Shown here piece by piece: positions 12,501 to 39,245 of a stretch of DNA of 64,000 nt (positions are counted from its first letter, which is position 1; every line of letters starts with the position of its first letter). A program made the position numbers and the translations under genes. This DNA is from Eledone cirrhosa (taxonomy: Eukaryota), in NCBI GenBank assembly GCA_964016885.1, contig OZ024746.1, forward strand, positions 57,226,001-57,290,000, given 5' to 3'. The notes under the pieces were generated by a model. That model searched no databases and had not been told where the DNA came from. It saw only the letters and a list, made by a program, of their open reading frames with translations.

Positions 12501-12699
12501 CCAAGTATGTTGAAAATGTGTAGTTCAGCAGGAAGGCTCAATTGACATGCACAAGTACATGATGACCAAACACAGCCGGCTATTGCCAGTGGATGTTTTT
12601 ATCCAGGTTGCCAACTCCGTGCAAGACATTTTAGATCATTGGCTGGGCTAAAAAGCCACATTCGATCGCAGCACCGTTAATTATTAATATATATATATA

Positions 12700-15600
12700 T
12701 TGGAATAAATGCTCTGAAATAGCGATATATATGTGAATATAGACATAGAATATTCGAAAATATTCTGTATGTTTATAATAAACATTTTGAAGACCTAATC
12801 GCTATAGAATAGAATACGTCACGTATTACAATTAGATTCTCGATAAAAGCAAGGGAAGTAAATCTACGCGTTTCATTCTCGTTAGAAATCGTCAGGACTA
12901 CATATCCAGTGCTTTCATCGAGAATGACACAGCTAGAGACTTATAGAATACTTAGCTGTGTACAGGAACTGGTTTGAAAGAGCGGTTGCCGGTCCGGCAG
13001 AAATTAGAAATTGGAATAAATGCTCTGAAATAGCGATATATATGTGAATATAGACATAGAATATTCGAAAATATTCTGTATGTTTATAATAAACATTTTG
13101 AAGACCTAATCGCTATAGAATAGAATACGTCACGTATTACAATTAGATTCTCGATAAAAGCAAGGGAAGTAAATCTACGCGTTTCATTCTCGTTAGAAAT
13201 CGTCAGGACTACATATCCAGTGCTTTCATCGAGAATGACACAGCTAGAGACTTATAGAATACTTAGCTGTGTACAGGAACTGGTTTGAAAGAGCGGTTGC
13301 CGGTCCGGCAGAAATTAGAAATTGGAATAAATGCTCTGAAATAGCGATATATATGTGAATATAGACATAGAATATTCGAAAATATTCTGTATGTTTATAA
13401 TAAACATTTTGAAGACCTAATCGCTATAGAATAGAATACGTCACGTATTACAATTAGATTCTCGATAAAAGCAAGGGAAGTAAATCTACGCGTTTCATTC
13501 TCGTTAGAAATCGTCAGGACTACATATCCAGTGCTTTCATCGAGAATGACACAGCTAGAGACTTATAGAATACTTAGCTGTGTACAGGAACTGGTTTGAA
13601 AGAGCGGTTGCCGGTCCGGCAGAAATTAGAAATTGGAATAAATGCTCTGAAATAGCGATATATATGTGAATATAGACATAGAATATTCGAAAATATTCTG
13701 TATGTTTATAATAAACATTTTGAAGACCTAATCGCTATAGAATAGAATACGTCACGTATTACAATTAGATTCTCGATAAAAGCAAGGGAAGTAAATCTAC
13801 GCGTTTCATTCTCGTTAGAAATCGTCAGGACTACATATCCAGTGCTTTCATCGAGAATGACACAGCTAGAGACTTATAGAATACTTAGCTGTGTACAGGA
13901 ACTGGTTTGAAAGAGCGGTTGCCGGTCCGGCAGAAATTAGAAATTGGAATAAATGCTCTGAAATAGCGATATATATGTGAATATAGACATAGAATATTCG
14001 AAAATATTCTGTATGTTTATAATAAACATTTTGAAGACCTAATCGCTATAGAATAGAATACGTCACGTATTACAATTAGATTCTCGATAAAAGCAAGGGA
14101 AGTAAATCTACGCGTTTCATTCTCGTTAGAAATCGTCAGGACTACATATCCAGTGCTTTCATCGAGAATGACACAGCTAGAGACTTATAGAATACTTAGC
14201 TGTGTACAGGAACTGGGTTTGAAAGAGCGGTTGCCGGTCCGGCAGAAATTAGAAATTGGAATAAATGCTCTGAAATAGCGATATATATGTGAATATAGAC
14301 ATAGAATATTCGAAAATATTCTGTATGTTTATAATAAACATTTTGAAGACCTAATCGCTATAGAATAGAATACGTCACGTATTACAATTAGATTCTCGAT
14401 AAAAGCAAGGGAAGTAAATCTACGCGTTTCATTCTCGTTAGAAATCGTCAGGACTACATATCCAGTGCTTTCATCGAGAATGACACAGCTAGAGACTTAT
14501 AGAATACTTAGCTGTGTACAGGAACTGGTTTGAAAGAGCGGTTGCCGGTCCGGCAGAAATTAGAAATTGGAATAAATGCTCTGAAATAGCGATATATATG
14601 TGAATATAGACATAGAATATTCGAAAATATTCTGTATGTTTATAATAAACATTTTGAAGACCTAATCGCTATAGAATAGAATACGTCACGTATTACAATT
14701 AGATTCTCGATAAAAGCAAGGGAAGTAAATCTACGCGTTTCATTCTCGTTAGAAATCGTCAGGACTACATATCCAGTGCTTTCATCGAGAATGACACAGC
14801 TAGAGACTTATAGAATACTTAGCTGTGTACAGGAACTGGTTTGAAAGAGCGGTTGCCGGTCCGGCAGAAATTAGAAATTGGAATAAATGCTCTGAAATAG
14901 CGATATATATGTGAATATAGACATAGAATATTCGAAAATATTCTGTATGTTTATAATAAACATTTTGAAGACCTAATCGCTATAGAATAGAATACGTCAC
15001 GTATTACAATTAGATTCTCGATAAAAGCAAGGGAAGTAAATCTACGCGTTTCATTCTCGTTAGAAATCGTCAGGACTACATATCCAGTGCTTTCATCGAG
15101 AATGACACAGCTAGAGACTTATAGAATACTTAGCTGTGTACAGGAACTGGTTTGAAAGAGCGGTTGCCGGTCCGGCAGAAATTAGAAATTGGAATAAATG
15201 CTCTGAAATAGCGATATATATGTGAATATAGACATAGAATATTCGAAAATATTCTGTATGTTTATAATAAACATTTTGAAGACCTAATCGCTATAGAATA
15301 GAATACGTCACGTATTACAATTAGATTCTCGATAAAAGCAAGGGAAGTAAATCTACGCGTTTCATTCTCGTTAGAAATCGTCAGGACTACATATCCAGTG
15401 CTTTCATCGAGAATGACACAGCTAGAGACTTATAGAATACTTAGCTGTGTACAGGAACTGGTTTGAAAGAGCGGTTGCCGGTCCGGCAGAAATTAGAAAT
15501 TGGAATAAATGCTCTGAAATAGCGATATATATGTGAATATAGACATAGAATATTCGAAAATATTCTGTATGTTTATAATAAACATTTTGAAGACCTAATC

Positions 15601-18600
15601 GCTATAGAATAGAATACGTCACGTATTACAATTAGATTCTCGATAAAAGCAAGGGAAGTAAATCTACGCGTTTCATTCTCGTTAGAAATCGTCAGGACTA
15701 CATATCCAGTGCTTTCATCGAGAATGACACAGCTAGAGACTTATAGAATACTTAGCTGTGTACAGGAACTGGTTTGAAAGAGCGGTTGCCGGTCCGGCAG
15801 AAATTAGAAATTGGAATAAATGCTCTGAAATAGCGATATATATGTGAATATAGACATAGAATATTCGAAAATATTCTGTATGTTTATAATAAACATTTTG
15901 AAGACCTAATCGCTATAGAATAGAATACGTCACGTATTACAATTAGATTCTCGATAAAAGCAAGGGAAGTAAATCTACGCGTTTCATTCTCGTTAGAAAT
16001 CGTCAGGACTACATATCCAGTGCTTTCATCGAGAATGACACAGCTAGAGACTTATAGAATACTTAGCTGTGTACAGGAACTGGTTTGAAAGAGCGGTTGC
16101 CGGTCCGGCAGAAATTAGAAATTGGAATAAATGCTCTGAAATAGCGATATATATGTGAATATAGACATAGAATATTCGAAAATATTCTGTATGTTTATAA
16201 TAAACATTTTGAAGACCTAATCGCTATAGAATAGAATACGTCACGTATTACAATTAGATTCTCGATAAAAGCAAGGGAAGTAAATCTACGCGTTTCATTC
16301 TCGTTAGAAATCGTCAGGACTACATATCCAGTGCTTTCATCGAGAATGACACAGCTAGAGACTTATAGAATACTTAGCTGTGTACAGGAACTGGTTTGAA
16401 AGAGCGGTTGCCGGTCCGGCAGAAATTAGAAATTGGAATAAATGCTCTGAAATAGCGATATATATGTGAATATAGACATAGAATATTCGAAAATATTCTG
16501 TATGTTTATAATAAACATTTTGAAGACCTAATCGCTATAGAATAGAATACGTCACGTATTACAATTAGATTCTCGATAAAAGCAAGGGAAGTAAATCTAC
16601 GCGTTTCATTCTCGTTAGAAATCGTCAGGACTACATATCCAGTGCTTTCATCGAGAATGACACAGCTAGAGACTTATAGAATACTTAGCTGTGTACAGGA
16701 ACTGGTTTGAAAGAGCGGTTGCCGGTCCGGCAGAAATTAGAAATTGGAATAAATGCTCTGAAATAGCGATATATATGTGAATATAGACATAGAATATTCG
16801 AAAATATTCTGTATGTTTATAATAAACATTTTGAAGACCTAATCGCTATAGAATAGAATACGTCACGTATTACAATTAGATTCTCGATAAAAGCAAGGGA
16901 AGTAAATCTACGCGTTTCATTCTCGTTAGAAATCGTCAGGACTACATATCCAGTGCTTTCATCGAGAATGACACAGCTAGAGACTTATAGAATACTTAGC
17001 TGTGTACAGGAACTGGTTTGAAAGAGCGGTTGCCGGTCCGGCAGAAATTAGAAATTGGAATAAATGCTCTGAAATAGCGATATATATGTGAATATAGACA
17101 TAGAATATTCGAAAATATTCTGTATGTTTATAATAAACATTTTGAAGACCTAATCGCTATAGAATAGAATACGTCACGTATTACAATTAGATTCTCGATA
17201 AAAGCAAGGGAAGTAAATCTACGCGTTTCATTCTCGTTAGAAATCGTCAGGACTACATATCCAGTGCTTTCATCGAGAATGACACAGCTAGAGACTTATA
17301 GAATACTTAGCTGTGTACAGGAACTGGTTTGAAAGAGCGGTTGCCGGTCCGGCAGAAATTAGAAATTGGAATAAATGCTCTGAAATAGCGATATATATGT
17401 GAATATAGACATAGAATATTCGAAAATATTCTGTATGTTTATAATAAACATTTTGAAGACCTAATCGCTATAGAATAGAATACGTCACGTATTACAATTA
17501 GATTCTCGATAAAAGCAAGGGAAGTAAATCTACGCGTTTCATTCTCGTTAGAAATCGTCAGGACTACATATCCAGTGCTTTCATCGAGAATGACACAGCT
17601 AGAGACTTATAGAATACTTAGCTGTGTACAGGAACTGGTTTGAAAGAGCGGTTGCCGGTCCGGCAGAAATTAGAAATTGGAATAAATGCTCTGAAATAGC
17701 GATATATATGTGAATATAGACATAGAATATTCGAAAATATTCTGTATGTTTATAATAAACATTTTGAAGACCTAATCGCTATAGAATAGAATACGTCACG
17801 TATTACAATTAGATTCTCGATAAAAGCAAGGGAAGTAAATCTACGCGTTTCATTCTCGTTAGAAATCGTCAGGACTACATATCCAGTGCTTTCATCGAGA
17901 ATGACACAGCTAGAGACTTATAGAATACTTAGCTGTGTACAGGAACTGGTTTGAAAGAGCGGTTGCCGGTCCGGCAGAAATTAGAAATTGGAATAAATGC
18001 TCTGAAATAGCGATATATATGTGAATATAGACATAGAATATTCGAAAATATTCTGTATGTTTATAATAAACATTTTGAAGACCTAATCGCTATAGAATAG
18101 AATACGTCACGTATTACAATTAGATTCTCGATAAAAGCAAGGGAAGTAAATCTACGCGTTTCATTCTCGTTAGAAATCGTCAGGACTACATATCCAGTGC
18201 TTTCATCGAGAATGACACAGCTAGAGACTTATAGAATACTTAGCTGTGTACAGGAACTGGTTTGAAAGAGCGGTTGCCGGTCCGGCAGAAATTAGAAATT
18301 GGAATAAATGCTCTGAAATAGCGATATATATGTGAATATAGACATAGAATATTCGAAAATATTCTGTATGTTTATAATAAACATTTTGAAGACCTAATCG
18401 CTATAGAATAGAATACGTCACGTATTACAATTAGATTCTCGATAAAAGCAAGGGAAGTAAATCTACGCGTTTCATTCTCGTTAGAAATCGTCAGGACTAC
18501 ATATCCAGTGCTTTCATCGAGAATGACACAGCTAGAGACTTATAGAATACTTAGCTGTGTACAGGAACTGGTTTGAAAGAGCGGTTGCCGGTCCGGCAGA

Positions 18601-21600
18601 AATTAGAAATTGGAATAAATGCTCTGAAATAGCGATATATATGTGAATATAGACATAGAATATTCGAAAATATTCTGTATGTTTATAATAAACATTTTGA
18701 AGACCTAATCGCTATAGAATAGAATACGTCACGTATTACAATTAGATTCTCGATAAAAGCAAGGGAAGTAAATCTACGCGTTTCATTCTCGTTAGAAATC
18801 GTCAGGACTACATATCCAGTGCTTTCATCGAGAATGACACAGCTAGAGACTTATAGAATACTTAGCTGTGTACAGGAACTGGTTTGAAAGAGCGGTTGCC
18901 GGTCCGGCAGAAATTAGAAATTGGAATAAATGCTCTGAAATAGCGATATATATGTGAATATAGACATAGAATATTCGAAAATATTCTGTATGTTTATAAT
19001 AAACATTTTGAAGACCTAATCGCTATAGAATAGAATACGTCACGTATTACAATTAGATTCTCGATAAAAGCAAGGGAAGTAAATCTACGCGTTTCATTCT
19101 CGTTAGAAATCGTCAGGACTACATATCCAGTGCTTTCATCGAGAATGACACAGCTAGAGACTTATAGAATACTTAGCTGTGTACAGGAACTGGTTTGAAA
19201 GAGCGGTTGCCGGTCCGGCAGAAATTAGAAATTGGAATAAATGCTCTGAAATAGCGATATATATGTGAATATAGACATAGAATATTCGAAAATATTCTGT
19301 ATGTTTATAATAAACATTTTGAAGACCTAATCGCTATAGAATAGAATACGTCACGTATTACAATTAGATTCTCGATAAAAGCAAGGGAAGTAAATCTACG
19401 CGTTTCATTCTCGTTAGAAATCGTCAGGACTACATATCCAGTGCTTTCATCGAGAATGACACAGCTAGAGACTTATAGAATACTTAGCTGTGTACAGGAA
19501 CTGGTTTGAAAGAGCGGTTGCCGGTCCGGCAGAAATTAGAAATTGGAATAAATGCTCTGAAATAGCGATATATATGTGAATATAGACATAGAATATTCGA
19601 AAATATTCTGTATGTTTATAATAAACATTTTGAAGACCTAATCGCTATAGAATAGAATACGTCACGTATTACAATTAGATTCTCGATAAAAGCAAGGGAA
19701 GTAAATCTACGCGTTTCATTCTCGTTAGAAATCGTCAGGACTACATATCGAGAATGACACAGCTAGAGACTTATAGAATACTTAGCTGTGTACAGGAACT
19801 GGTTTGAAAGAGCGGTTGCCGGTCCGGCAGAAATTAGAAATTGGAATAAATGCTCTGAAATAGCGATATATATGTGAATATAGACATAGAATATTCGAAA
19901 ATATTCTGTATGTTTATAATAAACATTTTGAAGACCTAATCGCTATAGAATAGAATACGTCACGTATTACAATTAGATTCTCGATAAAAGCAAGGGAAGT
20001 AAATCTACGCGTTTCATTCTCGTTAGAAATCGTCAGGACTACATATCCAGTGCTTTCATCGAGAATGACACAGCTAGAGACTTATAGAATACTTAGCTGT
20101 GTACAGGAACTGGTTTGAAAGAGCGGTTGCCGGTCCGGCAGAAATTAGAAATTGGAATAAATGCTCTGAAATAGCGATATATATGTGAATATAGACATAG
20201 AATATTCGAAAATATTCTGTATGTTTATAATAAACATTTTGAAGACCTAATCGCTATAGAATAGAATACGTCACGTATTACAATTAGATTCTCGATAAAA
20301 GCAAGGGAAGTAAATCTACGCGTTTCATTCTCGTTAGAAATCGTCAGGACTACATATCCAGTGCTTTCATCGAGAATGACACAGCTAGAGACTTATAGAA
20401 TACTTAGCTGTGTACAGGAACTGGTTTGAAAGAGCGGTTGCCGGTCCGGCAGAAATTAGAAATTGGAATAAATGCTCTGAAATAGCGATATATATGTGAA
20501 TATAGACATAGAATATTCGAAAATATTCTGTATGTTTATAATAAACATTTTGAAGACCTAATCGCTATAGAATAGAATACGTCACGTATTACAATTAGAT
20601 TCTCGATAAAAGCAAGGGAAGTAAATCTACGCGTTTCATTCTCGTTAGAAATCGTCAGGACTACATATCCAGTGCTTTCATCGAGAATGACACAGCTAGA
20701 GACTTATAGAATACTTAGCTGTGTACAGGAACTGGTTTGAAAGAGCGGTTGCCGGTCCGGCAGAAATTAGAAATTGGAATAAATGCTCTGAAATAGCGAT
20801 ATATATGTGAATATAGACATAGAATATTCGAAAATATTCTGTATGTTTATAATAAACATTTTGAAGACCTAATCGCTATAGAATAGAATACGTCACGTAT
20901 TACAATTAGATTCTCGATAAAAGCAAGGGAAGTAAATCTACGCGTTTCATTCTCGTTAGAAATCGTCAGGACTACATATCCAGTGCTTTCATCGAGAATG
21001 ACACAGCTAGAGACTTATAGAATACTTAGCTGTGTACAGGAACTGGTTTGAAAGAGCGGTTGCCGGTCCGGCAGAAATTAGAAATTGGAATAAATGCTCT
21101 GAAATAGCGATATATATGTGAATATAGACATAGAATATTCGAAAATATTCTGTATGTTTATAATAAACATTTTGAAGACCTAATCGCTATAGAATAGAAT
21201 ACGTCACGTATTACAATTAGATTCTCGATAAAAGCAAGGGAAGTAAATCTACGCGTTTCATTCTCGTTAGAAATCGTCAGGACTACATATCCAGTGCTTT
21301 CATCGAGAATGACACAGCTAGAGACTTATAGAATACTTAGCTGTGTACAGGAACTGGTTTGAAAGAGCGGTTGCCGGTCCGGCAGAAATTAGAAATTGGA
21401 ATAAATGCTCTGAAATAGCGATATATATGTGAATATAGACATAGAATATTCGAAAATATTCTGTATGTTTATAATAAACATTTTGAAGACCTAATCGCTA
21501 TAGAATAGAATACGTCACGTATTACAATTAGATTCTCGATAAAAGCAAGGGAAGTAAATCTACGCGTTTCATTCTCGTTAGAAATCGTCAGGACTACATA

Positions 21601-24600
21601 TCCAGTGCTTTCATCGAGAATGACACAGCTAGAGACTTATAGAATACTTAGCTGTGTACAGGAACTGGTTTGAAAGAGCGGTTGCCGGTCCGGCAGAAAT
21701 TAGAAATTGGAATAAATGCTCTGAAATAGCGATATATATGTGAATATAGACATAGAATATTCGAAAATATTCTGTATGTTTATAATAAACATTTTGAAGA
21801 CCTAATCGCTATAGAATAGAATACGTCACGTATTACAATTAGATTCTCGATAAAAGCAAGGGAAGTAAATCTACGCGTTTCATTCTCGTTAGAAATCGTC
21901 AGGACTACATATCCAGTGCTTTCATCGAGAATGACACAGCTAGAGACTTATAGAATACTTAGCTGTGTACAGGAACTGGTTTGAAAGAGCGGTTGCCGGT
22001 CCGGCAGAAATTAGAAATTGGAATAAATGCTCTGAAATAGCGATATATATGTGAATATAGACATAGAATATTCGAAAATATTCTGTATGTTTATAATAAA
22101 CATTTTGAAGACCTAATCGCTATAGAATAGAATACGTCACGTATTACAATTAGATTCTCGATAAAAGCAAGGGAAGTAAATCTACGCGTTTCATTCTCGT
22201 TAGAAATCGTCAGGACTACATATCCAGTGCTTTCATCGAGAATGACACAGCTAGAGACTTATAGAATACTTAGCTGTGTACAGGAACTGGTTTGAAAGAG
22301 CGGTTGCCGGTCCGGCAGAAATTAGAAATTGGAATAAATGCTCTGAAATAGCGATATATATGTGAATATAGACATAGAATATTCGAAAATATTCTGTATG
22401 TTTATAATAAACATTTTGAAGACCTAATCGCTATAGAATAGAATACGTCACGTATTACAATTAGATTCTCGATAAAAGCAAGGGAAGTAAATCTACGCGT
22501 TTCATTCTCGTTAGAAATCGTCAGGACTACATATCCAGTGCTTTCATCGAGAATGACACAGCTAGAGACTTATAGAATACTTAGCTGTGTACAGGAACTG
22601 GTTTGAAAGAGCGGTTGCCGGTCCGGCAGAAATTAGAAATTGGAATAAATGCTCTGAAATAGCGATATATATGTGAATATAGACATAGAATATTCGAAAA
22701 TATTCTGTATGTTTATAATAAACATTTTGAAGACCTAATCGCTATAGAATAGAATACGTCACGTATTACAATTAGATTCTCGATAAAAGCAAGGGAAGTA
22801 AATCTACGCGTTTCATTCTCGTTAGAAATCGTCAGGACTACATATCCAGTGCTTTCATCGAGAATGACACAGCTAGAGACTTATAGAATACTTAGCTGTG
22901 TACAGGAACTGGTTTGAAAGAGCGGTTGCCGGTCCGGCAGAAATTAGAAATTGGAATAAATGCTCTGAAATAGCGATATATATGTGAATATAGACATAGA
23001 ATATTCGAAAATATTCTGTATGTTTATAATAAACATTTTGAAGACCTAATCGCTATAGAATAGAATACGTCACGTATTACAATTAGATTCTCGATAAAAG
23101 CAAGGGAAGTAAATCTACGCGTTTCATTCTCGTTAGAAATCGTCAGGACTACATATCCAGTGCTTTCATCGAGAATGACACAGCTAGAGACTTATAGAAT
23201 ACTTAGCTGTGTACAGGAACTGGGTTTGAAAGAGCGGTTGCCGGTCCGGCAGAAATTAGAAATTGGAATAAATGCTCTGAAATAGCGATATATATGTGAA
23301 TATAGACATAGAATATTCGAAAATATTCTGTATGTTTATAATAAACATTTTGAAGACCTAATCGCTATAGAATAGAATACGTCACGTATTACAATTAGAT
23401 TCTCGATAAAAGCAAGGGAAGTAAATCTACGCGTTTCATTCTCGTTAGAAATCGTCAGGACTACATATCCAGTGCTTTCATCGAGAATGACACAGCTAGA
23501 GACTTATAGAATACTTAGCTGTGTACAGGAACTGGTTTGAAAGAGCGGTTGCCGGTCCGGCAGAAATTAGAAATTGGAATAAATGCTCTGAAATAGCGAT
23601 ATATATGTGAATATAGACATAGAATATTCGAAAATATTCTGTATGTTTATAATAAACATTTTGAAGACCTAATCGCTATAGAATAGAATACGTCACGTAT
23701 TACAATTAGATTCTCGATAAAAGCAAGGGAAGTAAATCTACGCGTTTCATTCTCGTTAGAAATCGTCAGGACTACATATCCAGTGCTTTCATCGAGAATG
23801 ACACAGCTAGAGACTTATAGAATACTTAGCTGTGTACAGGAACTGGTTTGAAAGAGCGGTTGCCGGTCCGGCAGAAATTAGAAATTGGAATAAATGCTCT
23901 GAAATAGCGATATATATGTGAATATAGACATAGAATATTCGAAAATATTCTGTATGTTTATAATAAACATTTTGAAGACCTAATCGCTATAGAATAGAAT
24001 ACGTCACGTATTACAATTAGATTCTCGATAAAAGCAAGGGAAGTAAATCTACGCGTTTCATTCTCGTTAGAAATCGTCAGGACTACATATCCAGTGCTTT
24101 CATCGAGAATGACACAGCTAGAGACTTATAGAATACTTAGCTGTGTACAGGAACTGGTTTGAAAGAGCGGTTGCCGGTCCGGCAGAAATTAGAAATTGGA
24201 ATAAATGCTCTGAAATAGCGATATATATGTGAATATAGACATAGAATATTCGAAAATATTCTGTATGTTTATAATAAACATTTTGAAGACCTAATCGCTA
24301 TAGAATAGAATACGTCACGTATTACAATTAGATTCTCGATAAAAGCAAGGGAAGTAAATCTACGCGTTTCATTCTCGTTAGAAATCGTCAGGACTACATA
24401 TCCAGTGCTTTCATCGAGAATGACACAGCTAGAGACTTATAGAATACTTAGCTGTGTACAGGAACTGGGTTTGAAAGAGCGGTTGCCGGTCCGGCAGAAA
24501 TTAGAAATTGGAATAAATGCTCTGAAATAGCGATATATATGTGAATATAGACATAGAATATTCGAAAATATTCTGTATGTTTATAATAAACATTTTGAAG

Positions 24601-25185
24601 ACCTAATCGCTATAGAATAGAATACGTCACGTATTACAATTAGATTCTCGATAAAAGCAAGGGAAGTAAATCTACGCGTTTCATTCTCGTTAGAAATCGT
24701 CAGGACTACATATCCAGTGCTTTCATCGAGAATGACACAGCTAGAGACTTATAGAATACTTAGCTGTGTACAGGAACTGGTTTGAAAGAGCGGTTGCCGG
24801 TCCGGCAGAAATTAGAAATTGGAATAAATGCTCTGAAATAGCGATATATATGTGAATATAGACATAGAATATTCGAAAATATTCTGTATGTTTATAATAA
24901 ACATTTTGAAGACCTAATCGCTATAGAATAGAATACGTCACGTATTACAATTAGATTCTCGATAAAAGCAAGGGAAGTAAATCTACGCGTTTCATTCTCG
25001 TTAGAAATCGTCAGGACTACATATCCAGTGCTTTCATCGAGAATGACACAGCTAGAGACTTATAGAATACTTAGCTGTGTACAGGAACTGGTTTGAAAGA
25101 GCGGTTGCCGGTCCGGCAGAAATTAGAAATTGGAATAAATGCTCTGAAATAGCGATATATATGTGAATATAGACATAGAATATTC
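12700..25185 (-). repeat. Tandem array of a 311-bp hammerhead-containing monomer (retrozyme-like satellite), 40 full copies plus a partial; ribozyme on the minus strand
   Basis: tggaataaat starts at 12701, 13012, 13323 ... 25131. The span of 12430 equals 40x311 plus three 1-bp insertions minus one 13-bp deletion. Confidence 0.97.
12836..12926 (-). ncRNA. Type I hammerhead ribozyme, first of 40 minus-strand copies (core 12865-12895)
   Basis: Reverse complement: gtagtc CTGACGA tttct-aacg-agaat GAAA CGCGTA gatttac, enclosed by attctcgatgaaagca / tgcttttatcgagaat. Confidence 0.8.
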
Positions 25186-27748
25186 TATAGCGATTAGGTC
25201 TTCAAAATGTTTATTATAAACATACAGAATATTTTCGAATATTCTATGTCTATATTCACATATATATCGCTATTTCAGAGCATTTATTCCAATTTCTAAT
25301 TTCTGCCGGACCGGCAACCGCTCTTTCAAACCAGTTCCTGTACACAGCTAAGTATTCTATAAGTCTCTAGCTGTGTCATTCTCGATGAAAGCACTGGATA
25401 TGTAGTCCTGACGATTTCTAACGAGAATGAAACGCGTAGATTTACTTCCCTTGCTTTTATCGAGAATCTAATTGTAATACGTGACGTATTCTATTCTATA
25501 GCGATTAGGTCTTCAAAATGTTTATTATAAACATACAGAATATTTTCGAATATTCTATGTCTATATTCACATATATATCGCTATTTCAGAGCATTTATTC
25601 CAATTTCTAATTTCTGCCGGACCGGCAACCGCTCTTTCAAACCAGTTCCTGTACACAGCTAAGTATTCTATAAGTCTCTAGCTGTGTCATTCTCGATGAA
25701 AGCACTGGATATGTAGTCCTGACGATTTCTAACGAGAATGAAACGCGTAGATTTACTTCCCTTGCTTTTATCGAGAATCTAATTGTAATACGTGACGTAT
25801 TCTATTCTATAGCGATTAGGTCTTCAAAATGTTTATTATAAACATACAGAATATTTTCGAATATTCTATGTCTATATTCACATATATATCGCTATTTCAG
25901 AGCATTTATTCCAATTTCTAATTTCTGCCGGACCGGCAACCGCTCTTTCAAACCAGTTCCTGTACACAGCTAAGTATTCTATAAGTCTCTAGCTGTGTCA
26001 TTCTCGATGAAAGCACTGGATATGTAGTCCTGACCATTTCTAACGAGAATGAAACGCGTAGATTTACTTCCCTTGCTTTTATCGAGAATCTAATTGTAAT
26101 ACGTGACGTATTCTATTCTATAGCGATTAGGTCTTCAAAATGTTTATTATAAACATACAGAATATTTTCGAATATTCTATGTCTATATTCACATATATAT
26201 CGCTATTTCAGAGCATTTATTCCAATTTCTAATTTCTGCCGGACCGGCAACCACTCTTTCAAACCAGTTCCTGTACACAGCTAAGTATTCTATAAGTCTC
26301 TAGCTGTGTCATTCTCGATGAAAGCACTGGATATGTAGTCCTGACGATTTCTAACGAGAATGAAACGCGTAGATTTACTTCCCTTGCTTTTATCGAGAAT
26401 CTAATTGTAATACGTGACGTATTCTATTCTATAGCGATTAGGTCTTCAAAATGTTTATTATAAACATACAGAATATTTTCGAATATTCTATGTCTATATT
26501 CACATATATATCGCTATTTCAGAGCATTTATTCCAATTTCTAATTTCTGCCGGACCGGCAACCGCTCTTTCAAACCAGTTCCTGTACACAGCTAAGTATT
26601 CTATAAGTCTCTAGCTGTGTCATTCTCGATGAAAGCACTGGATATGTAGTCCTGACGATTTCTAACGAGAATGAAACGCGTAGATTTACTTCCCTTGCTT
26701 TTATCGAGAATCTAATTGTAATACGTGACGTATTCTATTCTATAGCGATTAGGTCTTCAAAATGTTTATTATAAACATACAGAATATTTTCGAATATTCT
26801 ATGTCTATATTCACATATATATCGCTATTTCAGAGCATTTATTCCAATTTCTAATTTCTGCCGGACCGGCAACCGCTCTTTCAAACCAGTTCCTGTACAC
26901 AGCTAAGTATTCTATAAGTCTCTAGCTGTGTCATTCTCGATGAAAGCACTGGATATGTAGTCCTGACGATTTCTAACGAGAATGAAACGCGTAGATTTAC
27001 TTCCCTTGCTTTTATCGAGAATCTAATTGTAATACGTGACGTATTCTATTCTATAGCGATTAGGTCTTCAAAATGTTTATTATAAACATACAGAATATTT
27101 TCGAATATTCTATGTCTATATTCACATATATATCGCTATTTCAGAGCATTTATTCCAATTTCTAATTTCTGCCGGACCGGCAACCGCTCTTTCAAACCCA
27201 GTTCCTGTACACAGCTAAGTATTCTATAAGTCTCTAGCTGTGTCATTCTCGATGAAAGCACTGGATATGTAGTCCTGACGATTTCTAACGAGAATGAAAC
27301 GCGTAGATTTACTTCCCTTGCTTTTATCGAGAATCTAATTGTAATACGTGACGTATTCTATTCTATAGCGATTAGGTCTTCAAAATGTTTATTATAAACA
27401 TACAGAATATTTTCGAATATTCTATGTCTATATTCACATATATATCGCTATTTCAGAGCATTTATTCCAATTTCTAATTTCTGCCGGACCGGCAACCGCT
27501 CTTTCAAACCAGTTCCTGTACACAGCTAAGTATTCTATAAGTCTCTAGCTGTGTCATTCTCGATGAAAGCACTGGATATGTAGTCCTGACGATTTCTAAC
27601 GAGAATGAAACGCGTAGATTTACTTCCCTTGCTTTTATCGAGAATCTAATTGTAATACGTGACGTATTCTATTCTATAGCGATTAGGTCTTCAAAATGTT
27701 TATTATAAACATACAGAATATTTTCGAATATTCTATGTCTATATTCAC

Positions 27749-27756
<8 letters not shown>
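25181..27756 (+). repeat. Inverted block of the same 311-bp monomer (~8.3 copies, 8 hammerhead motifs on +), ending in (TA)n
   Basis: Reverse complement of the left array. Core motifs run from 25408 to 27586 at 311-bp spacing, with one +1 insertion. Confidence 0.97.
25377..25467 (+). ncRNA. Type I hammerhead ribozyme, first plus-strand copy
   Basis: CTGACGA 25408-25414, stem II TTCT/AGAA with AACG loop, GAAA 25429-25432, palindromic ACGCGT, predicted cleavage after GUA at 25438. Confidence 0.8.
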
Positions 27757-37135: not shown

Positions 37136-38004
37136 ATGTAATGTTTAATACTTACTGTCTTATTTTCATATTTTTGTCTATAAAATATGTATTTTAAATT
37201 AAGTAGTTTAATATTTCATTACATTAGCAGCTTGTGAGACGAGATGTGTATACCCTGATGTTTTCATAATCAGAAACTAGACTAGTGTGTACACGGCCGT
37301 TCCAGACCACCGAAGAATATTTGGTCCAATAAGGTAGTCTATTTGTACAACCGCATTAAATCTATTTCTATTAAAAAAGGGTTCTCGCCCCACGTATATA
37401 TTTATTAATAGAACTCATCTATCGGGATGACAATTTTATATAAAATCTCCTAATCATTTAGACACATAATCCACGCTTTTGGCGGGAGCGGAAATATTTG
37501 TTTTCTAATCTCCCGCCACCACGTAAATTTGTAAATCGGGGGACGGAGTTATATCAGATTCCAGTTGCTAATCACTTTAGTGTGCCGGCCGTCGCAAACA
37601 GTCTTAGCTGGCATGGAATGGAGTTGAATTATGTCGATCGATTGGTTATTGATTAGGCGGTAAATGCTGATGAATCCACATACACCGATTATGCATTGTT
37701 GCATAATATATGCAGATAGGGTGCACTGCACCCTATTGCTGCATTAAGTGTGACCGAAACTTGAGTCCGGGAACCAATATAAGCACCCGTTTACGTGTGT
37801 TGTATTGAAGCGAATAACTATGTGTATAATCTGAAATGTATTCTATATTATCTAGTGAGTACGCTGAAATACAACTGGTCCTGGCATTGTTAAATATGCT
37901 GGGTACGTCAACTCCTTATATATATATGACAAGATTCAGGACCCCGACAGCTGAGCTCCGGCCGTTTCGACACCTAGATACGAGCTGAATCGCCGGTCCG
38001 TATA

Positions 38005-38303
<299 letters not shown>

Positions 38304-38312
<9 letters not shown>

Positions 38313-39156
38313 GAAACACACAGATACATGCGGACACACACATATATACATGAATGCATCCGCACCCAACTGTGAGTTAAGGGTGCCTACTTCACCGATG
38401 TTGCTCAATGAATGACTGGGACAGACCAATTCAGTTTGAACCAGACTGAACCAGTATCAGAGTTAAAAATACATTATGAAGAGAGAAGAAACATTTAGAT
38501 ATAATTAGTAATAAAATGTATCATACCTAAACTGTTCCTAAATTCCTCGACTACGTAGTTTCGTGGCATAAACAAAAACAATATATCAAAGATATAGAGT
38601 CCTTGCGAGGTCTGCCGACTTATCAAGAGGATACCTCATTTTACTAGTCTCAAGAACGCGTCTACACGACGTGAGAAAGAATCCCAAAAGGCGGAGGGGG
38701 AGATAGTCACGCGATATAACGGTCGAGAAACAGAGCTAAGCCTCTTATAACCACGAAGAAAATACCACGGAGGCGGAGGGGGTATTCATATCGAGGCCGC
38801 AGAAGAGGTAGTGAAGAAGGCGAGAAGTATGAGTAATGGAAGCTTTCCAGTTGTCCCCACACTTCAAAGATTGCTCGACCAGAGGGAGTTATTAATATAT
38901 TTAGAAACACACAGATACATGCGGACACACACATATATACATGAATGCATCCGCACCCAACTGTGAGTGTAGACGCGTTCTTGAGACTAGTAAAATGAGG
39001 TATCCTCTTGATAAGTCGGCAGACCTCGCAAGGACTCTATATCTTTGATATATTGTTTTTGTTTATGCCACGAAACTACGTAGTCGAGGAATTTAGGAAC
39101 AGTTTAGGTATGATACATTTTATTACTAATTATATCTAAATGTTTCTTCTCTCTTC

Positions 39157-39161
<5 letters not shown>
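38304..39161. mobile_element. Retrozyme-like element: 591-bp unit present ~1.1 times (38304-38968) plus 195-bp inverted copy (38967-39161), both ends in (TA)n
   Basis: 38311-38377 equals 38902-38968 (period 591). 38473-38667 is the reverse complement of 38967-39161. Confidence 0.85.
39003..39090 (+). ncRNA. Type I hammerhead with U3-A8 core variant (identical copy on minus strand at 38544-38631)
   Basis: TCCTC TTGATAA gt(c)ggca...tgccac GAAA CTACGTAG TC GAGGA: perfect 5-bp stem I, stem II, palindromic stem III, GUC site at 39083-39085. Confidence 0.75.
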
Positions 39162-39200
<39 letters not shown>

Positions 39201-39245
39201 CAGCGATTCTTTGCTTAAACTTTAATCTGTTATCTTAATAAATAT

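What the first reader, a model, noticed from the sequence alone, without database searches (positions are those of the whole stretch)
38304..39161. 591-bp unit copied ~1.1 times plus an inverted arm: footprint of a circular or multimeric RNA template
Seen: the unit restarts after 591 bp, its ends do not coincide with the ribozyme cleavage site, and a 2-bp (GT) junction leads into a 195-bp inverted copy. The left end begins at an internal ATATAT that merges with (TA)n. The repeated segments look identical, so the insertion is young. This is a miniature of the 311-bp array with no evident sequence similarity to it. Inference: a second retrozyme family using the same insertion machinery.
Basis: partly seen in the sequence, partly recalled or inferred. 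Interest (0 to 1): 0.7.

Follow-up and report, generated by a model that had tools for sequence, protein, structure and literature searches.

The report
Two-armed retrozyme with fossil RNA edits
This is one of thousands of young copies of a protein-free jumping repeat with a predicted self-cutting RNA motif; its back-to-back insertions pair two different fixed ends and carry A-to-G changes shared by every unit, which suggests that a Penelope-type enzyme likely copies one edited RNA circle from both strands of a TA repeat, a route proposed in print but not shown in the papers I found.

Summary
The anatomy is confirmed, except that the GT is a 2-bp overlap, not an insert. The 591-bp non-coding unit carries a minimal type I hammerhead fold with a U3-A8 core; one 23-mer of it occurs 7,458 times in the genome. 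It is an animal non-LTR retrozyme, not a PLE terminal repeat. The predicted varied permutation holds for 5' ends only: 119 of 129 arms end at +80 or +245 past the cleavage site, in (TA)n. All 48 two-armed junctions are back-to-back; 40 pair one end of each type, none pairs two alike. Older subfamilies, the 311-bp family and a coding Neptune-like PLE with matching end motifs obey the same rule. Variants shared by all units of a locus are 24 of 49 A>G on the ribozyme strand, against 7 of 101 single-unit changes, pointing to one edited monomer, likely a circle, copied repeatedly. No RNA was seen. The scan noted this family, the two-end rule and (in other families) the editing mark before, on other DNA of this genome.

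The parts
38277..38309 (.). (TA)n target, left
38304..38968 (-). Left arm, 665 bp = 1.13 units, ribozyme-sense on minus; 5' end at monomer position 172, 3' end at fixed site B (+245 from the cut site)
38304..38894 (-). One 591-bp monomer: 41.8% GC, longest stop-free stretch 86 codons, circular fold z = -5.4 on this strand and -1.3 on the other (30 shuffles)
38895..38968 (-). 74-bp terminal redundancy, identical to 38304-38377
38544..38631 (-). Predicted minimal type I hammerhead: 5-bp stem I, U3-A8 core, bulged stem II with a long hairpin extension, palindromic stem III; predicted cut between 38549 and 38548
38469..38480 (-). Internal copy of fixed end site A (+80), read through in this arm
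38304..38315 (-). Fixed end site B (+245), used as the left end
38967..38968 (.). 2-bp microhomology joining the 5' ends of the two arms
38967..39165 (+). Right (inverted) arm, 0.34 unit, monomer position 473 to site A; exact match 38967-39161; hammerhead at 39003-39090
39160..39198 (.). (AT)n target, right
12699..27756 (.). Unrelated 311-bp hammerhead array (40.2 + 8.3 units) with the same two-armed, two-end footprint (+166 and +140); comparison only

Best explanation
This is a single two-armed insertion of an abundant non-coding hammerhead repeat (non-LTR retrozyme) into a (TA)n tract, likely made by a Penelope-like (Neptune-type) RT-endonuclease that would prime on one circular 591-nt RNA at two fixed sites, one for each DNA strand. 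Shown: copy number, fixed 3' ends, one-of-each pairing, back-to-back polarity, variable 5' ends, short microhomology joints, one haplotype per locus, A>G excess among locus-wide variants, and a coding PLE with the same footprint. Inferred: tandem source loci are transcribed; hammerheads cut (probably as dimers, given the palindromic stem III); the monomer is ligated and sometimes A-to-I edited; both 3' ends of the self-complementary (TA)n target anneal to sites A (+80) and B (+245); each RT rolls round the circle and stops at random; the two cDNA ends are joined by microhomology. This locus has one hammerhead per strand, so it would be a dead-end product, not a source of circles.
For: Ends: 119 of 129 arms in 77 loci end at A or B and 119 of 129 run into an AT tract; 5' ends take 110 distinct values, uniform over six bins (P=0.58). 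Pairing: 48 of 48 junctions divergent; 40 A/B (one locus is a duplication counted twice), 0 A/A, 0 B/B, 8 with one or both ends outside the A/B windows; 3 more A/B in 9 further loci. Replication: 8 A/B of 16 and 15 of 20 junctions in subfamilies about 77% and 87% identical, no like pairs; 311 family 8 of 10 two-armed loci; coding PLE 18 of 23 junctions, ends +82 and +150, no like pairs. That PLE has RT plus C-terminal GIY-YIG, 13,904 exact copies of a hammerhead 21-mer, a U3-A8 core, and end motifs matching sites A and B. Template continuity: 114 of 129 arms cross the cut site, 57 twice or more (samples were chosen to include it); 201 of 219 spans have exact length. One template: within-locus difference 0.26% vs 1.05% between loci. 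Editing: locus-wide distinct variants A>G 24, T>C 7 of 49 (P=1e-5); single-unit events A>G 7 of 101 (Fisher 9e-9); 5' G neighbour 1 of 24 (P=0.016); holds in both samples, at >=3 copies and across both arms; 87% subfamily 9 of 33 vs 12 of 185 (Fisher 0.001). The TA junctions at both sites appear as loose contig ends in another run.
Against: No RNA, circle or cleavage was observed. The partner is not pinned down: no extended homology to any PLE fetched, and at least two other coding families have U3-A8 cores. 13 of 48 junctions are near-symmetric (7.2 expected, P=0.02), as fold-back would give; in this locus the short arm lies wholly within the long arm's range. 10 of 127 5' ends lie at +10 to +20 (scan P=0.038), as a cut linear 5' end might give. 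Strand asymmetry alone is not significant in the 87% subfamily (9 vs 6, P=0.09), and A>G sites are not enriched in predicted pairs (14 of 24 vs 80 of 132). A/G wobble changes are common in conserved helices, so selection may add to the A>G excess; against that, C>T 5 and G>A 6 show no matching bias. Only 1 of 46 pairs shows a two-sided change, so covariation support is weak. 15 variant sites are shared by only some units (8 are in two loci holding two insertions).
Confidence: 0.62

Rival explanations
1. One cDNA is made, folds back or self-primes on an antisense template to give a head-to-head palindrome, and the endonuclease resolves it at two target-like motifs; later central deletions blur the symmetry.
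For: Proposed for Penelope (PMC3846280, passages; tail as endonuclease resolution in PMC8557442, passages). 13 of 48 junctions within 45 nt of symmetry, 3 exact. Short PLE insertions have both arms starting near -70 (26 of 46 5' ends at -76 to -58).
Against: In 15 of 40 A/B pairs neither arm fits inside the other (one duplicate included); 35 of 48 junctions are asymmetric; it does not by itself explain why two like ends never occur. It is compatible with a circular first template.
Confidence: 0.2
2. The template is an uncut linear multimer transcribed from homogeneous tandem loci, primed at the same two sites.
For: Dimer-type hammerheads cut poorly in vitro (PMC4209133, passages); multimeric RNAs exist in axolotl (PMC7229834, passages); 10 of 127 5' ends at +10 to +20.
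Against: Editing of a multimer would mark units separately, but A>G is enriched only in the all-unit class (24 of 49 vs 7 of 101); sample-private A>G are shared by 7-8 of 7-8 units in L121 and 10-12 units in L108, both arms.
Confidence: 0.13
3. A monomer or solo PLE terminal repeat inserted and was then amplified in place by unequal crossing-over or local inversion.
For: Satellite-birth model in bioRxiv 10.64898/2026.07.22.740005; a few partly shared variants fit later local duplication or conversion.
Against: Same fixed outward ends and back-to-back polarity at dozens of unlinked loci in four families; no convergent junction in 77 loci; no copy reads into a PLE frame start in 144 loci.
Confidence: 0.05

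Closest known systems
Metazoan non-LTR retrozymes (PMC7229834, passages and Discussion read; review PMC7761336, passages; bioRxiv 10.64898/2026.07.22.740005, parts 1-3 of 5 read)
   Same: Non-coding, under 45% GC, dispersed short tandems with one type I hammerhead per unit; PLE mobilisation through a circle with more-than-unit cDNA is their stated hypothesis.
   Different: 591 bp exceeds the 150-450 bp of PMC7229834 but lies within 51-972 bp of the preprint. 'Inverted' does not occur in PMC7229834, and the review says that the repeats show no motif that points to a partner. Two fixed, always paired ends, (TA)n targeting and locus-wide A>G marks were not in the text I read. Preprint supplements are closed and could bear on this.
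EN+ Penelope-like elements, Neptune/Nematis type, and non-autonomous Chlamys such as MRC1 (PMC8557442, PMC3846280, PMC4209133; passages read)
   Same: 5' truncation, partial tandems, an adjacent inverted 5'-truncated copy, a tail at one end only, AT-microsatellite bias, minimal hammerheads with palindromic stem III; circle-templated more-than-unit copying was suggested in PMC4209133.
   Different: No ORF. The offset between the two ends is 165 nt here (about 68 in the local PLE, about 26-30 in the 311 family) against the published 30-40 bp, and it behaves as a strict one-of-each rule rather than an optional tail.
U3-A8 hammerhead core variant (PMC3088659, section 8 read)
   Same: C3-G8 covaries to U3-A8; reported as natural and active in vitro.
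   Different: Here in a dimer-type animal ribozyme with a long stem II extension; activity untested.
L1 twin priming (recalled, not read here)
   Same: Two primers on one RNA give an inverted 5' segment joined by microhomology.
   Different: In L1 the second site is variable and the arms are non-overlapping parts of a linear RNA; here both sites are fixed and the arms overlap and exceed unit length.

Membership tests
Metazoan non-LTR retrozyme | Tandem units each with a type I hammerhead | tested here: met
   Arrays up to 6.9 units; core and stem III kept in 115 of 125, 38 of 51 and 24 of 37 anchored copies of three subfamilies. This locus has one hammerhead per strand.
Metazoan non-LTR retrozyme | Non-coding, low GC, no long terminal repeats | tested here: met
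   41.8% GC, longest stop-free stretch 86 codons; arms are permuted pieces of one monomer. PBS and PPT were not searched.
Metazoan non-LTR retrozyme | Dispersed high copy number | tested here: met
   7,458 exact 23-mers, control 0; loci on at least 12 contigs.
Metazoan non-LTR retrozyme | Self-cleavage of the transcript | not testable with these tools
   Fold and conservation only.
Metazoan non-LTR retrozyme | Expressed as monomeric circular RNA | not testable with these tools
   Indirect only: strand-specific fold and A>G pattern.
Autonomous EN+ PLE (unit as pLTR) | RT and GIY-YIG ORF between pLTRs | tested here: not met
   6 of 144 loci have PLE protein hits, none with the unit reading into a frame start; two are separated by (TA)n, one abuts a mid-RT fragment, three lie far off.
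Non-autonomous PLE-mobilised element | PLE insertion footprint: inverted 5'-truncated copy, tail at one end, microsatellite target | tested here: met
Non-autonomous PLE-mobilised element | 3'-end sequence similarity to a named autonomous family | tested here: inconclusive
   Short end motifs, the +80/+82 spacing and the U3-A8 core match the L157 family, but blastn finds no extended homology.

The most novel reading that the evidence does not exclude
The tail and inverted copy of Penelope-like elements are the footprint of obligate two-site priming: one RT-endonuclease complex holds a single circular RNA at two distinct motifs and extends both target strands round the circle, and retrozymes hijack it with just these two motifs; ADAR edits made on the circle are written into every unit, so the genome records both the circular template and RNA editing as a heritable mutation source.
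Probability: 0.45. Interest if true: 0.75.

Novelty: new member of a known kind. Interest (0 to 1): 0.55.

Why it matters
How PLEs make their tandem and inverted insertions is called undefined in PMC8557442, and the circle-to-genome step of animal retrozymes is stated as a hypothesis in PMC7229834 and PMC7761336. This family gives a small non-coding substrate with two mapped end sites, a strict pairing rule shared with a coding PLE, and a built-in molecular barcode (locus-wide A>G) that separates circle from linear multimer. That makes both questions directly testable. The element itself is of a known kind.

Tried and rejected
Rfam: no ribozyme family among the 150 listed of 172 matches. RNA evidence: no RNA holder listed. 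Two runs of unrecorded kind each hold one unbranched 620/621-nt contig that closes on itself; trace genomic DNA after k-mer filtering gives the same, so not used. Chimeric co-insertion with a PLE arm at L083: rejected, the 591 arm abuts the end of a separate two-armed PLE piece. pLTR of a coding PLE: rejected. L174 PLE family (same core heptamer) as direct parent: no homology beyond the ribozyme, main end near +200. Equal-length coupled arms (5' offset near 165): 4 of 41 pairs at 170-183, no clear peak. Shared hairpins at the two ends (lead from e1-8809842): local folds showed no common hairpin across 591, 311 and PLE ends, a coarse test. The short end motif is not enriched in the window (11 vs 22.8 expected), so it is not a detector by itself. 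Long-read fold-back artefact: rejected, since flanks and ends of the arms differ and both TA junctions occur in another run. Loci L079 and L066 (two insertions each) and loci under 97% identity were dropped from the main spectrum count (66 loci kept); with a 90% cut (80 loci) it is 27 of 62 vs 13 of 129. Paper searches for prior reports (listings only, apart from the papers named as read) showed no title or abstract on fixed paired ends or editing marks in retrozymes; subscription journals are not covered. PMC5785218 was not held.

Full report
Observation. The window holds an exact 74-bp direct repeat at period 591 (38304-38377 and 38895-38968) and an exact 195-bp inverted copy (38967-39161 of 38473-38667). 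The GT at 38967-38968 is shared by both arms. Both outer ends merge with TA tracts. A motif scan finds a type I hammerhead on the minus strand, with core at 38626 and predicted cut after 38549, and its mirror in the inverted arm. The core is the U3-A8 covariant of C3-G8, reported as natural and active in vitro in PMC3088659 (section 8). Stem III is a short palindrome, the form said to need dimers in PMC4209133 (passages). Rfam listed no ribozyme family (150 of 172 rows shown).

Family. A DNA search found 645 candidates, 40 scored, 99-100% identical, in tandems at 591-bp spacing. A 23-mer across the cut site occurs 7,458 times, control 0. The monomer is 41.8% GC with no stop-free stretch above 86 codons; folded as a circle it is far more stable than 30 shuffles on the ribozyme strand (z -5.4) but not on the other (z -1.3). 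Two older subfamilies at about 87% and 77% identity keep the core and stems; 96.2% of cells pair in 46 named pairs over 22 sequences, but only one pair changes on both sides, so the covariation test is weak.

Ends. I mapped 129 arms in 77 loci (37 from the best DNA hits including the window, 40 from the first pattern hits on contig C1) on a monomer numbered from the cut site. 119 of 129 3' ends lie at +80 (site A) or +245 (site B), and 119 of 129 run into an AT tract. 5' ends take 110 values and are uniform over six bins (P=0.58). All 48 two-armed junctions are 5'-to-5'; 40 pair A with B (one locus is a duplication), none pairs like with like, and 8 have one or both ends outside the A/B windows. 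34 of 48 junctions overlap by 1 or more bases, 7 are flush, 7 have extra bases (alignment ends may inflate overlaps). Nine further loci add 3 A/B pairs. The older subfamilies give 8 A/B of 16 and 15 of 20 junctions, no like pairs. The window's own locus is a B arm plus an A arm.

Same machinery? The 311-bp family (177 exact 23-mers) has a minimal hammerhead, no similarity to the 591 unit, and ends at +140 and about +166 paired in 8 of 10 two-armed loci. The genome has many GIY-YIG frames (10,596 candidates, 150 scored). Of 20 fetched, one family (L157; 938-residue frame, RT plus C-terminal GIY-YIG with a Cys linker of the Neptune/Nematis kind described in PMC8557442) has a U3-A8 hammerhead present 13,904 times and fixed ends at +82 and +150, paired in 18 of 23 junctions with no like pair. 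Its first end is a pyrimidine run whose last nine bases equal site A of the oldest 591 subfamily, and its second end differs from site B by one base. There is no extended homology, and other U3-A8 families exist, so the clade is indicated but not the family. The unit is not a pLTR: none of 144 loci reads into a frame start.

Template. 114 of 129 arms cross the cut site and 57 cross it twice or more (both samples were chosen to include it), and 201 of 219 spans are exact in length, so the template was continuous there: a circle or an uncut multimer. Units of a locus differ by 0.26%, loci by 1.05%; in 68 loci, 141 variant sites are shared by all copies of a locus, 112 are single, 15 partial. The spectrum separates the two templates. 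In 66 loci, locus-wide distinct variants are A>G 24 and T>C 7 of 49 on the ribozyme strand (P=1e-5), while single-unit events are A>G 7 of 101 (Fisher 9e-9). G is rare 5' of these A's (1 of 24, P=0.016), which fits the ADAR neighbour preference as I recall it. The contrast holds in each sample, at 3 or more copies, and at positions covered by both arms, and in the 87% subfamily (9 of 33 vs 12 of 185, Fisher 0.001; strand test alone P=0.09). Editing of a linear multimer would mark units one by one; marks found only in the all-unit class imply that one monomer served every unit and both arms. A covalent circle is the simplest such template; repeated exact jumps on one linear monomer are not excluded. 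Selection for G-U pairs could add to the excess, but C>T and G>A are balanced (5 and 6).

Mechanism. Most likely (0.62): a Neptune-type RT-endonuclease opens the self-complementary (TA)n target, the two 3' ends prime at sites A and B of one circle, both cDNAs roll and stop at random, and they are joined by microhomology. Ends, pairing, polarity and haplotypes are shown; transcription, cleavage, circularisation, editing and the enzyme are inferred. The fold-back model of PMC3846280 has some support (13 of 48 near-symmetric junctions, P=0.02), but in 15 of 40 pairs neither arm fits within the other. A cut linear multimer has weak support from 10 of 127 5' ends at +10 to +20 (scan P=0.038).

Known and new. 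Non-LTR retrozymes, their circles and the PLE link are in print; inverted copies, a 30-40 bp one-ended tail and TA bias are known PLE traits. In the text I read and in searches I found no report of strict one-of-each ends, a 165-nt offset, or locus-wide editing marks in retrozymes; preprint supplements and subscription papers were not visible. Earlier notes of this scan describe other copies of this family with the two-end rule and editing marks in other families of this genome; my end counts and the editing idea were written down before those look-ups, and the notes are not counted as support.

Verdict. Real, young, multi-copy; a new member of a known kind, with unusually direct genomic evidence on an open mechanism. 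Interest 0.55.

Noticed in passing
L181, L183, L189, L191, L195, L204, L037:70-428, L052:1386-1751 and others: Many short two-armed pieces of the coding PLE start both arms about 60-75 nt upstream of its cut site (26 of 46 5' ends). This may be run-off at the 5' end of an uncut transcript, which would place both priming sites in the 5' leader.
   Followed up: partly
window 12699-27756: 311-bp array of 40.2 + 8.3 units at 99.9% identity, with a canonical C3-G8 minimal hammerhead with a U-U at the base of stem II; ends +166 and +140. One insertion of about 15 kb if copied in a single event.
   Followed up: partly
L108 (G000:C1:326714700-326720900): 311-family locus with two A>G changes in all 10-12 covering units of both arms and in no other of 12 loci.
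   Followed up: partly
L121 (G000:C1:50593400-50602600): 591-family locus with 10 variants shared by all 7-8 covering units, most of them A>G, and a roughly 60-bp filler of short repeated element pieces at the junction.
   Followed up: partly
window 37926-38000, 38105-38276, 39199-39237: The flanks are themselves short repeats bounded by TA tracts, matched in 31, 49 and 31 fetched loci (overlapping loci not merged); some look like small two-armed insertions of other families. The locus is a nest of TA-targeted elements.
   Followed up: no
L107: A 311-family two-armed locus uses two other ends (+199, +234), still unlike each other and about 35 nt apart.
   Followed up: no
L160, L163, L164, L171, L174, L175: Several further coding PLE families with their own minimal hammerheads, some C3-G8 and some U3-A8.
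   Followed up: partly
runs X1 and X6: Runs with two other organism codes each hold the monomer as one self-closing contig at depth about 8; kind of run not on record.
   Followed up: partly
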